A DNA stretch of 5,483 nucleotides from a virus. Its lineage: Duplodnaviria > Heunggongvirae > Uroviricota > Caudoviricetes. Shown in pieces: positions 3,001-5,483 of this stretch (its first letter is position 1; each line of letters starts with the position of its first letter). Location: IMG/VR virus record IMGVR_UViG_2671180846_000019. One strand, 5' to 3'. The position numbers were made by a program.

Positions 3001-5483
3001 TTATTGTCTTCCTTTTTTTTGAATGGTGCGCGTATTTTACATACATGAGTTTGTAATACAAGGTGCGTAATCAATATGATGTTTTATAATTGCGTGAGAC
3101 AATTGATTTATTCGTTTTTTATTGCGGTTTTTATTATCTTTTAATGTAACGGTGTTTTTATTAAGTGTGTTTGCGTGGTGTTTTATGTTTTTTATAATTT
3201 TTATTTTATTAAATTTAAAAGCATTAGTAATGGCTATTCTATATAGCAATATAAGAACTGTTACAAAAAAAGGGGGGCAATTACAGGTAGTTATGGATGA
3301 TGAGTGAAACAGATATTGGAGAACCGGGGAATGAATGATGTCTGAGTCTTATATATCAGAACTCCTTCGCTGTCGCTGGGGGCTCCTGTGCTTATGTCGT
3401 TTCCCCGATTCGGTTTTGAACGATTACCGAATGTTGAAGAATTATGCCAAAATATAGAAAGGATTTACTGCATGAATACCCAATATTTACAGTATGTTCG
3501 TGAGCAACTTATGGCAGCTACTGCTGACTTGAACGGAGCAACGAAAGGCCAGCTCGAAGCCTGGCAGGAGCATGCACAATTTGATACTGGTACATACAAA
3601 CGAAAGAAGCCGCGCATTCTGGATGTGGTAACTGGCAAGATGATTACGCTGGATAATACGCCGACTTCCGGTAAGCAGTCGTACGCAAAAGGTTCATCCA
3701 TTGCTTTGGTCAGCCCGGTTGAATTCTCAACCTCTTCATGGCGCCGCGCGGTTTTGTCTCTCGATGAACATCAGAAAGCATGGTTGCTTTGGTGTTACAG
3801 CGAAAGCGTTCGATGGGGGCATCAGGTCACCATAACGCAATGGGCATGGAGCGAGTTTAAAGATTTGTTAAGTAACAGAAAAATTGCAGGTAAGACACTG
3901 GATCGCCTGAAGACGTTAATCTGGCTGGCTGCACAGGATGTGAAGAGCGAACTTGCAGGGCGTGAGGCCTATGAATACCAGACACTGGCATCATTGGTGG
4001 GAGTGACAACAAAAAACTGGTCCGAGACATTTACTGAACGCTGGGTTGCAATGAAGCACATTTTTCTACAGCTTGATAGTGATGCTTTATTGCTTGTGAC
4101 GAGAACACGTTCAAAACAAAAGGCAGCATTTTTACAGCAAAATATTGCAAAACTGGATTAAAAGCCATATACTTCATGCAAATTTGGTATGTTGTAAAAA
4201 ATGTATAAACCCGCTGCCGAGTGGGTTTTTTTTATGCCCTGAGTTGTACTTGTACGGTAAACATGCTGGCTGCTATGTAATAGAGTTTTTTTAGCCTGTA
4301 ACCTCTTGACGGCATTGAATTGCTTTTGTTATGAGTTGTAAGCCAATGTTATCATCTTGTATTGGGGTGGTTATGAAGGATGGTGCGCTGCTCAGGAGTT
4401 CTTCACTTTTTATTGCCTACATGGGATGCCTTGGATGGGGGAGTGCTTATTTCTATGGATGGGGTACTTCTTTTTACTACGGCTTCCCATGGTGGATTGT
4501 AGGTGCAGGTGTTGATGATGTTGCCAGAAGTTTATTTTTTGCAGTTATCGTCATTGCTATATTTCTTATCGGTTGGGGTATTGGTGTTGTATTCTTTTTC
4601 GCAGTGAAAAGAAAACATTCTATGCAAGAGCTAAATGTATTTCGCCTTTATTTTGCTGTGGAATTATTGTTTGTGCCGGCAATTATTGAGTTTTCTATAT
4701 TGAGACAGAAGATTCAGGTACCTCTTTTGCTACTGTCAGCAGCGATTGCGCTGGCGGTTACAATTTCGATAAGATCTTATGGGCGATTTTTATCGGTATC
4801 ATGCTTCTATGATAAGCCATTTATAAAAAAACATTTTTTTGAGATTGTGATGATTGCTTTTGTGGCATATTTCTGGCTTTTTTCATTTCTGACAGGATAT
4901 TACAAACCACAGTTTAAGAAAGAATATGAAATGATTAATTATAATGATGGTTGGTATTATGTTCTTGCTCGTTATGATAATTGTCTGGTTTTGTCTACTT
5001 CTTTCAATGCAGGTAGTAAAAGGTTTGTCATTTATCAATCAGCACAAGATAAGAATCTTCAGGTTGATATTGTAAGGACCAGAATTTAATTGGCTGCATA
5101 AATAATATTTTAAGTTGCAAGTTGGCTATTCGTAGGAATAGAACCTTAGGCATGCTGAATGCGTTTTCTGAACATTGTTTTATAAACTGTGTCTGCTTGC
5201 TGTTGTGATCCTGCTTTTAGTGATGGTGATGATGGATTTCACCAGCAGGATAATGTTGGTACTGACTGATGGCGCTCTGGTCTGCGGCATTGTGGTATTG
5301 CTGTGGCCGATGATGAAAGAACAGAATGAATAATTCTTGACTTTTTTGTTTACTGTTTATTAAAAAATCAACCGCATGGTGAATCCTCCTTGGAGGGGCT
5401 AAATGATCGAGTTTTAAGGGCACGTAGCGAGTTCTGTTTGATCATTGCAGAACTTAGCGGGAGGCGCCATGCGTACATCACTA

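What the first reader, a model, noticed from the sequence alone, without database searches (positions are those of the whole stretch)
4145..4233. Compact late-control module: promoter over the end of the Q-like gene and a short leader ending in an intrinsic terminator
TTGCAA-17-TATACT promoter candidate, a -10-like pause motif in the initial transcribed region, and a 9-bp GC-rich hairpin with a T run within about 55 nt reproduce the architecture of lambdoid PR'/qut/tR' units. This supports the Q assignment of the upstream 257-aa protein and implies the downstream membrane protein is Q-dependent. A weaker second T run (4286-4292) may add termination.
Basis: inference. Interest (0 to 1): 0.45.

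Follow-up and report, generated by a model that had tools for sequence, protein, structure and literature searches.

The report
Phage-82-type late promoter, pause site, terminator
This is the late-gene switch of a lambda-like prophage of pathogenic E. coli: an always-on promoter whose short transcript stops at a terminator unless the phage Q protein modifies RNA polymerase. It is a well-known kind of element, and published start-site mapping on identical DNA confirms the start to the base.

Summary
Window 4145-4233 holds TTGCAA-17-TATACT, an extended -10-like element TGGTATGTT (4185-4193) and a 9-pair hairpin followed by eight T (4207-4233). The gene upstream is a Q antiterminator of the phage 82 family (Pfam PF06323, 89% identical to phage 82 Q). 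Its true length is 229 aa (ATG 3472), not 257.

Across about 145 related loci the -35, -10 and TGnTATnnT elements keep one fixed register. 93% of the unique leaders end in a hairpin plus T-run, against 2.5-6% of controls. Published Cappable-seq of E. coli O157:H7 EDL933, whose DNA is identical here, places a transcription start at exactly window A4180 in all 8 conditions tested. The -10-like hexamer at +9..+14 predicts a pause at +24/+25, and phage 82 pauses at +25.

Three side claims fail. The downstream membrane-protein gene has its own starts at 4342 and 4362, so it is not purely Q-dependent. The second T-run has no hairpin. The Q protein was over-extended.

Pausing, Q binding, termination and read-through were not tested for this sequence. 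It is a new member of a known kind, and interest is low.

The parts
3472..4161 (+). Q antiterminator gene, 229 aa, phage 82 family. Its last codons (I-A-K-L-D-stop) carry the -35 element and most of the promoter spacer.
   Evidence: Pfam PF06323, E = 1.7e-91. 89% identical to phage 82 Q over the full length. Annotated from this ATG in phage 434 and in O26, Sakai and EDL933.
4145..4150 (+). -35 hexamer TTGCAA of the late promoter (PR'-type).
   Evidence: TTGCAA in 73 of 80 unique relatives. It is kept where the Q ORF ends up to 33 nt upstream, so coding constraint does not explain it.
4151..4167 (+). 17-nt promoter spacer that contains the Q stop codon (4159-4161). It is a candidate region for the Q-binding element, which was not mapped here.
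   Evidence: Conserved A positions at -29/-28, -23 and -19/-18. The string TTGCAAAACTGGATTAAAA is kept in three contigs where it no longer encodes Q. In phage 82, the fragment -31..+30 carries the Q-binding element and the pause element (PMC4914094).
4168..4173 (+). -10 hexamer TATACT.
   Evidence: Across 54 non-redundant relatives: T 80%, A 100%, T 94%, A 93%, T 93% (C in this window), T 98%.
4180..4180 (+). Transcription start (A, +1).
   Evidence: Cappable-seq start at EDL933 position 899803 in all 8 conditions (PMC10469882, Table S5). It maps to window 4180 on identical sequence. It is the main start in exponential LB, acid and salt cultures, with relative read scores of 252-326.
4185..4193 (+). 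Sigma70-dependent pause element: an extended -10-like TGGTATGTT, with TG at +6/+7 and the hexamer TATGTT at +9..+14.
   Evidence: T+6 91%, G+7 100%, T+9 100%, A+10 100%, T+11 98% and T+14 100%, while +12 and +13 are free. The anchoring pattern constrained +6 to T/C/A, +7 and +8 to G/A, and fixed +9 to +11, so only the values at +4 and +14 are wholly independent of it. The register from the -35 element is 46 nt in 142 of 145 loci.
4204..4205 (+). Predicted promoter-proximal pause site (+25/+26). This is an inference.
   Evidence: The hexamer ends at +14. In lambda the pause lies 10-11 nt after the element (PMC9191641). Phage 82 pauses at +25 (PMC4914094).
4207..4233 (+). Intrinsic terminator (tR'-type): stem 4207-4215/4220-4228, loop GCCG, T8 at 4226-4233. 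It would release an RNA of about 53-55 nt.
   Evidence: Folds at -12.1 kcal/mol, z = -4.7. Annotated as a terminator in phage 434. 89 of 96 unique relatives have a terminator-like site within +102, against 2.5% of control tiles and 5.8% of shuffles.
4286..4292 (+). Second T-run. It is not a recognisable intrinsic terminator.
   Evidence: No significant upstream hairpin (z = +1.14 and +0.59).
4306..4362 (+). Two Q-independent promoters for the downstream membrane-protein gene. TTGACG-18-TGtTATGAG gives a start at G4342. TTGTTA-18-TGtTATCAT gives a start at T4362.
   Evidence: Cappable-seq starts at 899964 (8 of 8 conditions) and 899984 (7 of 8), mapped. The second promoter-like site is also listed.
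4346..5089 (+). Membrane-protein gene of the 'moron' type (an extra gene inserted after PR'). It is the first gene after the terminator. The start codon could be 4346 or 4373.
   Evidence: No Pfam family matched.

Best explanation
This is the late-gene control unit of a lambdoid prophage, of the phage 82 type.

A constitutive sigma70 promoter (-35 at 4145-4150, -10 at 4168-4173) overlaps the last codons of the Q gene and starts transcription at A4180. At +6..+14 the non-template strand reads TGGTATGTT. Sigma70 still bound to the early elongation complex recognises this as an extended -10 element, which holds RNA polymerase at about +25.

Without Q, the polymerase escapes and terminates about 29 nt later at the hairpin plus T8 (4207-4233). 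That releases an RNA of about 54 nt. After induction, Q (3472-4161) binds its DNA site within roughly -31..+8, engages the paused complex with NusA, and travels with it. The complex then reads through this terminator and the further terminators that precede the lysis and morphogenesis genes.

Shown here: the sequence elements, their family-wide conservation in register, the family membership of Q, and the start site with its constitutive activity (from published data on identical DNA). Inferred by homology to phage 82: the pause, Q binding, termination and Q-dependent read-through.
For: - Q is PF06323 (E = 1.7e-91). PF06323 is the Q82 family (PMC9388147). The protein is 89% identical to the experimentally studied phage 82 Q.
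- 145 of 149 Q82-family loci carry TTGC..-17-xAxxxT followed by TGnTATnnT. The register is identical in 142 of the 145.
- In 54 non-redundant sequences, A-11 and T-7 of the -10 hexamer are 100% and 98% conserved. A+10 and T+14 of the -10-like hexamer are both 100%, while +12 and +13 vary freely. That is the pattern expected for recognition by sigma region 2.
- A pattern scan of viral contigs returned 80 loci. 65 have a Q82-family ORF ending directly at the module and 9 have one ending just upstream of it. 3 have one about 860 nt upstream with another ORF between, and 3 lie too close to a contig end to judge. The Q proteins include some only 29-35% identical to this one, whose promoters are entirely non-coding.
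- A hairpin plus T-run follows in 89 of 96 unique leaders, against 2.5% of control tiles and 5.8% of shuffles.
- The window hairpin folds at -12.1 kcal/mol, z = -4.7.
- A Cappable-seq start at EDL933 899803 equals window A4180. It is present in 8 of 8 uninduced conditions and is the main start in three of them, with relative read scores of 252-326.
- The hexamer ends at +14, and adding 10-11 nt gives +24/+25. Phage 82 pauses at +25.
- In the O26 genome the holin, lysozyme, Rz and terminase genes lie downstream on the same strand. They sit behind three more terminator-like sites.
Against: - There is no direct evidence for pausing, Q binding, termination efficiency or Q-dependent read-through with this exact sequence.
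- I could not obtain the phage 82 PR' sequence or its mapped Q-binding element, so the Q site is not located.
- The stem has only 4 G-C pairs plus one G.U pair, and its T-tract varies (T7, T8, T9) among near-identical copies. Termination strength is therefore unknown.
- This 'short' leader lacks the extra hairpin found between the pause element and the terminator in most relatives, including the closest relatives of phage 82.
- A start 12 nt upstream of the Q ATG is active in all uninduced conditions (window 3460). Some Q may therefore be made in the lysogen.
- The carrier prophages in O157 and O26 are partly decayed. The switch may no longer drive a productive lytic cycle.
Confidence: 0.9

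Rival explanations
1. The unit works chiefly as a gene for a constitutive, trans-acting small RNA. The roughly 54-nt terminated PR' transcript would be an Hfq-type regulator in the lysogen, as StxS is in Shiga-toxin phages. This would add to the antitermination role rather than replace it.
For: - The start at 4180 is strong and active in all 8 uninduced conditions.
- The RNA would have an AU-rich 5' part, a terminator hairpin and a U8 tail.
- Short PR' RNAs can be functional Hfq small RNAs, and phage 82 makes such a short RNA (PMC7547250).
- The module is present at 95% identity or more in 620 of 5426 complete E. coli genomes.
Against: - No Hfq-bound small RNA is listed at this position in Sakai prophage Sp3 (PMC4104026 supplement). 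That screen, as described in PMC7547250, kept only peaks more than 100 nt from a genomic feature, so the absence is weak evidence.
- The 5' part of the RNA is conserved for its DNA-level pause element, which explains the conservation without any RNA function.
- No Rfam family reaches its threshold here (STnc240 scores 28 bits against a threshold of 55).
Confidence: 0.12
2. The site is, or also is, a CII-dependent antisense promoter of the paQ type on the minus strand, as annotated in the phage 434 GenBank record. The TTGC-N6-TTGC motif at 4150-4137 would drive an anti-Q RNA.
For: - A perfect TTGCAATATTTTGC lies on the minus strand at 4137-4150, and it is annotated as a CII site and paQ -35 in OL657226.
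- A weak antisense start maps to window 4133 in 2 of 8 conditions.
Against: - The upstream half-site is kept in only 29 of 80 unique relatives, whereas TTGCAA is kept in 73 of 80.
- My reading of the sequence finds no -10-like hexamer at the distance used by lambda pRE, about 13 nt after the second TTGC.
- The observed antisense start lies 17 nt from the start of the motif. By my recollection of the pRE geometry, about 40 nt would be expected.
- About 0.7 such motifs are expected by chance in a window of this size (my arithmetic).
Confidence: 0.08
3. The hairpin is simply the terminator that ends the Q (early-right) transcript, and the promoter-like and -10-like motifs upstream of it are chance matches.
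For: - Promoter-like hexamer pairs are no more frequent in the window than in shuffles (9 against 11.4).
- The hairpin is the first terminator after the Q stop codon, so it would also stop unmodified early transcripts.
Against: - An experimentally mapped start lies at exactly the predicted base, in 8 of 8 conditions.
- The composite motif is expected 0.00 times by chance.
- The elements hold a fixed register in about 145 loci and remain conserved where they are non-coding.
Confidence: 0.02

Closest known systems
Phage 82 late-gene regulatory region (82 PR', Q-binding element, sigma70-dependent pause at +25, downstream terminator; Goliger and Roberts 1987/1989, used in PMC4914094)
   Same: - The Q family is the same (PF06323), and Q is 89% identical.
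- The last 62 nt of the Q gene are 95% identical to the phage 82 record (H30).
- The promoter-to-pause-element register is the same as in PhiR47_2, whose Q is 97% identical to phage 82 Q.
- The predicted pause at +24/+25 matches the published +25.
   Different: - The -10 is TATACT rather than TATATT. The pause element is TGGTATGTT rather than TGATATTTT.
- The leader is about 22 nt shorter. It lacks the hairpin that sits between the pause element and the terminator in the phage 82-like leaders. The terminator stem ends at +49 instead of about +76.
- The authentic 82 PR' sequence itself was not available to me.
Escherichia phage 434, GenBank OL657226 (positions 41124-42224)
   Same: 100% identical DNA over window 3300-4400. 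Q is annotated as 'Q82-like' and the terminator is annotated at window 4210-4235.
   Different: - The record annotates no PR' promoter, pause element or start site here. It marks a minus-strand CII site and paQ -35 instead.
- The window's upstream genes (Rha/KilAC, YbcO, RusA, NinH) differ from those of phage 434 (NinG, NinI).
Phage lambda PR'/qut/tR' (6S RNA)
   Same: The logic is the same: a constitutive promoter next to Q, a -10-like sigma-dependent pause element, an intrinsic terminator, and late genes beyond it.
   Different: - The Q family is unrelated (PF03589).
- The lambda pause is at +16/+17 with the element at about +1..+6.
- From my own recollection, not checked here, the lambda terminated RNA is 194 nt, against about 54 nt here.
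StxS, the Hfq-binding small RNA made by termination of the PR' transcript in Shiga-toxin phages (PMC7547250)
   Same: Same genomic position and same origin: a constitutive PR' transcript stopped at tR' in lysogens of EHEC.
   Different: No sequence relationship or Hfq binding was shown for this leader. StxS is processed to 74 nt, whereas this RNA would be about 54 nt. A function as a small RNA is only a possibility here.

Membership tests
Lambdoid Q-dependent late control unit, phage 82 type | A Q antiterminator gene of the Q82 family (PF06323) lies immediately upstream. | tested here: met
   PF06323, E = 1.7e-91, profile positions 1-216 of 220. 89% identity to phage 82 Q. PF06323 is the Q82 family per PMC9388147.
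Lambdoid Q-dependent late control unit, phage 82 type | A constitutive sigma70 promoter lies at or after the 3' end of Q. | tested here: met
   TTGCAA-17-TATACT. The elements are conserved across relatives. A Cappable-seq start falls on window A4180 in 8 of 8 uninduced conditions on identical DNA.
Lambdoid Q-dependent late control unit, phage 82 type | A -10-like sigma70-dependent pause element in the initial transcribed region, placed to give a pause at about +25. | tested here: met
   At the sequence level: TGGTATGTT at +6..+14. T+14 is 100% conserved independently of the anchoring pattern, T+9, A+10 and T+11 are invariant, and the register is fixed in 142 of 145 loci. Pausing itself was not testable with these tools.
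Lambdoid Q-dependent late control unit, phage 82 type | A Q-binding element (qut DNA site) next to the pause element. | tested here: inconclusive
   Some conserved positions are not explained by promoter function: the A-tracts at -31..-28 and -19..-17, and T+4 at 100%. They persist where the DNA is non-coding. The mapped phage 82 site could not be retrieved.
Lambdoid Q-dependent late control unit, phage 82 type | An intrinsic terminator between the pause site and the late genes. | tested here: met
   Hairpin plus T8, -12.1 kcal/mol, z = -4.7. 89 of 96 relatives have one, against 2.5% and 5.8% of controls. In vivo termination was not tested.
Lambdoid Q-dependent late control unit, phage 82 type | Lysis and morphogenesis genes lie downstream on the same strand and can be reached only through terminators. 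| tested here: met
   In O26:H11, the holin, lysozyme, Rz, terminase and portal genes lie downstream. Three further terminator-like sites on the + strand precede the holin gene.
Lambdoid Q-dependent late control unit, phage 82 type | Q-dependent read-through of the terminator. | not testable with these tools
   Needs in vitro transcription or reporter assays with Q supplied.
Rfam STnc240 (enterobacterial small RNA) | Covariance-model score at or above the gathering threshold of 55 bits. | tested here: not met
   28.2 bits at 4168-4237. The match rests mostly on the terminator and the A-rich stretch.
CII-dependent promoter (lambda pRE/pI/paQ type), minus strand | TTGC-N6-TTGC straddling the -35 region, with a -10 hexamer and a start at the pRE-like distance. 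| tested here: not met
   The repeat is present (4150-4137). No -10-like hexamer lies about 13 nt downstream by my reading of the sequence. The half-site is kept in only 29 of 80 relatives. The only antisense start (window 4133, 2 of 8 conditions) is at the wrong distance. CII binding was not testable.

The most novel reading that the evidence does not exclude
The roughly 54-nt RNA made constitutively from this promoter and stopped at the terminator may be more than a by-product. It could be a trans-acting, Hfq-type regulatory RNA of the lysogen, as StxS is in Shiga-toxin phages. It is carried in one copy by about 11% of complete E. coli genomes, including O157:H7, O26, O111 and O121 strains. 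A second, smaller point: the comparative consensus derived here (-35 TTGCAAAA, A-tracts in the spacer, T+4, TGnTATnnT at +6..+14) gives the cis-site definition that a first structure of a Q82-family loading complex would need. No Q82-family structure is in the PDB copy searched.
Probability: 0.12. Interest if true: 0.45.

Novelty: new member of a known kind. Interest (0 to 1): 0.2.

Why it matters
The finding mainly helps annotation. It places PR', the pause element, the start site and tR' in a prophage region whose public records mark only Q and, in one record, the terminator. That region is shared by phage 434 and by prophages of O157:H7, O26, O111 and O121 strains.

It also separates what the Q switch controls from what is expressed in the lysogen. 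The lysis and virion genes sit behind several terminators. The lpxR and membrane-protein extra genes have their own promoters.

The family-wide consensus for the Q82-type cis elements could help structural work on the one Q family that has no solved structure. None of this changes how Q antitermination is understood.

Tried and rejected
- **Phage 82 PR' sequence.** Searching the paper library for sequence strings found only unrelated papers. The supplement of PMC4914094 that holds the template sequences is not held, and the phage 21 paper PMC207295 is not held. I therefore used PhiR47_2 (Q 97% identical to 82 Q) as a proxy.
- **Rfam.** Nothing reaches threshold over the leader. STnc240 (28 bits against 55) and weak leader or isrK matches were rejected as terminator-driven.
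- **Extra hairpin in the 'long' leaders.** RNAalifold gave no consensus structure because the 3' arm shifts register between sequence types. Per-sequence folding was used instead.
- **PDB.** No solved relative of this Q protein by sequence.
- **Phage 434 genome paper.** A search for a description of this region found nothing.
- **Hfq cross-linking lists for Sakai (PMC4104026 supplement).** No small RNA is called at the PR' leader, only EcOnc13 and EcOnc32 further downstream. This is uninformative, because the screen kept only peaks more than 100 nt from a genomic feature (PMC7547250).
- **Second T-run as a terminator.** Rejected on folding.
- **CII/paQ reading of the phage 434 annotation.** Rejected on geometry and conservation.
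- **The 49-aa TTG ORF at 4145-4294 and the 10-codon ATG ORF at 4176.** Rejected. The first is a mechanical ORF running across the promoter and terminator. The second begins upstream of the mapped start.
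Full report
**Where the window comes from.** The 5.5-kb window is a lambdoid prophage segment. It is 100% identical, apart from a masked stretch, to prophages of E. coli O26:H11 11368 and many other EHEC genomes. Positions 3300-4400 are 100% identical to phage 434, GenBank OL657226. The gene order is Rha/KilAC antirepressor, YbcO, RusA, NinH, LpxR on the minus strand, YlcG, Q, a membrane protein, then a DUF3927 protein.

**The observation.**
- The promoter is TTGCAA (4145-4150), a 17-nt spacer, and TATACT (4168-4173).
- The -10-like motif is TGGTATGTT (4185-4193).
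- The hairpin spans 4207-4228 and has 9 pairs: 4 G-C, one G.U and 4 A-U.
- Eight T follow at 4226-4233, and seven more at 4286-4292.

The hexamer match alone is not above chance: the window has 9 promoter-like sites against 11.4 +/- 3.3 in shuffles. The hairpin, however, folds at -12.1 kcal/mol with z = -4.7. The composite pattern occurs once in the window and 0.00 times in 200 shuffles, even with two mismatches allowed.

**The protein upstream.** The ORF matches Pfam PF06323 at E = 1.7e-91. That family is the Q82 family of antiterminators (PMC9388147). From ATG 3472 the protein has 229 residues and is 89% identical to the experimentally studied phage 82 Q. The 257-aa form from GTG 3388 is an over-extension. 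The Pfam match begins at residue 32 of that form, every homologue starts MNTQYL, and the public annotations use the ATG. No relative has a solved structure.

**Comparative test of the cis elements.** I collected Q82-family loci from 63 bacterial genomes and 80 viral contigs, plus six phage records.
- 145 of 149 loci carry TTGC..-17-hexamer followed by TGnTATnnT. The distance from the -35 element to the TAT is identical in 142 of the 145.
- In 54 sequences no more than 93% identical to one another, the -10 hexamer reads T 80%, A 100%, T 94%, A 93%, T 93%, T 98%.
- Downstream, T+4 is 100%, T+6 91%, G+7 100%, T+9, A+10 and T+11 are 100%, 100% and 98%, and T+14 is 100%. Positions +12 and +13 are free.
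- The anchoring pattern restricted +6 to +8 and fixed +9 to +11. T+14, T+4 and the whole -10 hexamer were unconstrained by it.

Invariant second and sixth positions, a free middle and a TG one base upstream are the signature of an extended -10 element read by sigma70.

Coding constraint does not explain the conservation. In distant family members (Q 29-35% identical) the Q ORF ends up to 33 nt before the -35 element, yet the module is intact. In three contigs another ORF sits between Q and the module, and TTGCAAAACTGGATTAAAA is still kept.

A pattern-only scan of viral contigs returned 80 loci.
- 65 have a Q82-family ORF ending directly at the module.
- 9 have a distant family member ending just upstream of it.
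- 3 have Q about 860 nt upstream, with another ORF in between.
- 3 lie too close to a contig end to judge.

**The terminator.** A hairpin plus T-run lies within +102 in 89 of 96 unique leaders. The same scan finds one in 2.5% of 848 control tiles from the same loci and in 5.8% of shuffled leaders. The stems differ in sequence between lineages, for example CCCGC/GCGGG, GCCCGAGG/CCTTGGGC and GCCTCGC/GCGGGGC. What is conserved is the structure, not the sequence.

There are two length classes. In the 'short' class the stem ends at +48/+49. This class includes the window, several other genera and the distant Q group. In the 'long' class the stem ends mostly between +64 and +93.

**Experimental start site.** A published Cappable-seq study of E. 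coli O157:H7 EDL933 covered exponential and stationary cultures in LB, minimal, acid and salt media, with no phage induction described (PMC10469882). It lists a plus-strand start at 899803 in all eight conditions (Table S5). EDL933 899740-900009 is identical to window 4117-4390 except for T7 in place of T8 in the terminator tail. Position 899803 is therefore window A4180, exactly 7 nt after TATACT.

It is the main start assigned to the downstream gene in three exponential conditions, with relative read scores of 252-326. In the same table the dnaK main start scores 30-254. It also shows the promoter is constitutive and strong, as lambda PR' is (PMC7547250).

**Mechanism.** With +1 at 4180, the -10-like hexamer occupies +9..+14. 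In lambda, sigma region 2 engages an element at about +1..+6 and the complex pauses at +16/+17 (PMC9191641). The same offset here gives +24/+25. Phage 82 pauses at +25, and its -31..+30 fragment carries both the Q-binding element and the pause element (PMC4914094).

I therefore infer the following sequence of events.
1. RNA polymerase pauses near 4204-4205.
2. Without Q it terminates at 4207-4233, giving an RNA of about 54 nt.
3. With Q and NusA it becomes termination-resistant.

In the O26 genome the holin, lysozyme, Rz, terminase and portal genes follow on the same strand. They lie behind three more terminator-like sites, which is what a processive antiterminator is for. The pause, Q binding, termination and read-through are inferences from homology and were not shown here.

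**What does not hold.**
- The same Cappable-seq table shows starts at window 4342 (8 of 8 conditions) and 4362 (7 of 8). Each lies 7 nt after an extended -10 promoter (TTGACG-18-TGtTATGAG and TTGTTA-18-TGtTATCAT), and both lie downstream of the terminator. The membrane-protein gene is thus expressed in the lysogen on its own, like lpxR. It is not simply Q-dependent, although Q read-through would add to its transcription.
- The second T-run has no hairpin (z = +0.6 to +1.1).

**Rivals.**
- The phage 434 record marks a CII site and paQ -35 on the opposite strand at 4137-4150. The upstream half-site survives in only 29 of 80 relatives, no -10 hexamer sits at the pRE-type distance, and the only antisense start (window 4133, 2 of 8 conditions) is misplaced.
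- A plain 'end of the Q transcript' terminator with chance motifs upstream is excluded by the mapped start and by the conservation.
- A small-RNA role for the short transcript, as for StxS, is not excluded. No Hfq site is listed there for Sakai, but that screen ignored peaks close to genes.

**Verdict.** This is a correct call of a textbook kind of element, in a variant not itself characterised. Compared with phage 82-like leaders it has a short leader, TATACT, TGGTATGTT and no first hairpin. The module is present at 95% identity or more in 620 of 5426 complete E. coli genomes, always as a single copy.

Noticed in passing
window 1823-1885: The first 20 or so codons of a lambda-type Q gene (MRLESVAKFHSPKSPMMSDS...) follow ninH and then break off. 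The lpxR-ylcG-Q82-type-PR' block has evidently replaced a lambda-type Q region by recombination. The phage 434, O26 and EDL933 records all annotate the fragment.
   Followed up: partly
window 5344-5483 (continues past the window end); L152 9616-9820: An STnc100-like RNA element lies after the DUF3927 gene. It scores 33 bits when cut off by the window end, and 41.4 bits full-length in the O26 genome, against a threshold of 47 (E = 1.2e-6). It ends in a strong terminator (L152 9791-9809). The Hfq-bound small RNAs EcOnc13 and EcOnc32 map to the corresponding interval (between ECs0816 and ECs0818) of Sakai prophage Sp3. PasD/STnc100 small RNAs are reported next to lpxR and Q genes.
   Followed up: partly
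L004 1593-1618, L007 1590-1617 and most 'long' leaders (+11 to +38); absent from the window: Most Q82-type leaders carry an extra hairpin between the pause element and the terminator, and its 5' arm overlaps the end of the -10-like hexamer. Four different stem sequences (TTTGCC/GGCAAA, TGCCA/TGGCA, GTCGCC/GGTCGAC, ATGCTGCC/GGCGGCAT) keep the pairing. Three of the types give z = -2.4 to -5.3, and the GTCG type is weak. The window's counterpart (GUAUGUU/AAUGUAU) is not significant (z = +0.8). Function unknown.
   Followed up: partly
It shares DNA with the window only from position 4208 onward (89% over 4208-4340, 95% over 4229-4400). The mosaic joint therefore falls inside the terminator, and the 2B8 copy of the hairpin is decayed (z = +0.2).
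   Followed up: partly
window 3460 (+ strand): Cappable-seq shows a start 12 nt upstream of the Q ATG (EDL933 899083) in all 8 uninduced conditions, with relative read scores of about 19-57. The Q mRNA may therefore be made at a low level in the lysogen. The Shine-Dalgarno sequence AGGA would sit at the very 5' end of that transcript.
   Followed up: no
window 3027 (- strand) and window 4133 (- strand): A start for lpxR lies 30 nt upstream of its ATG in 8 of 8 conditions (EDL933 898650), so lpxR has its own promoter. A weak start antisense to the 3' end of Q (EDL933 899756) appears in 2 of 8 conditions.
   Followed up: no
window 4346 versus 4373: The start codon of the membrane-protein gene is annotated at 4346 in the phage 434, O26, Sakai and current EDL933 records. 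It is at 4373 in phage 2B8 and in the 2017 EDL933 annotation. The mapped start at 4362 lies downstream of 4346, so only the 4373 ATG, preceded by GGGGTGG, can be used on that transcript.
   Followed up: partly
window 866-915: A run of 50 N lies inside the KilAC antirepressor gene. The matching genomes hold about 100 more bases across the window span (5583 against 5483).
   Followed up: no
L157, L159, L228 (viral contigs): In three contigs an extra ORF (ending ...LATW*) is inserted between the Q gene and the PR' module. The module starts 3 nt after that ORF's stop, and the former Q C-terminal codons are retained as promoter DNA.
   Followed up: no
window 4226-4233: The terminator T-tract is length-polymorphic among otherwise near-identical copies: T7 in EDL933 and several viral contigs, T8 here, T9 in L080.
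   Followed up: no
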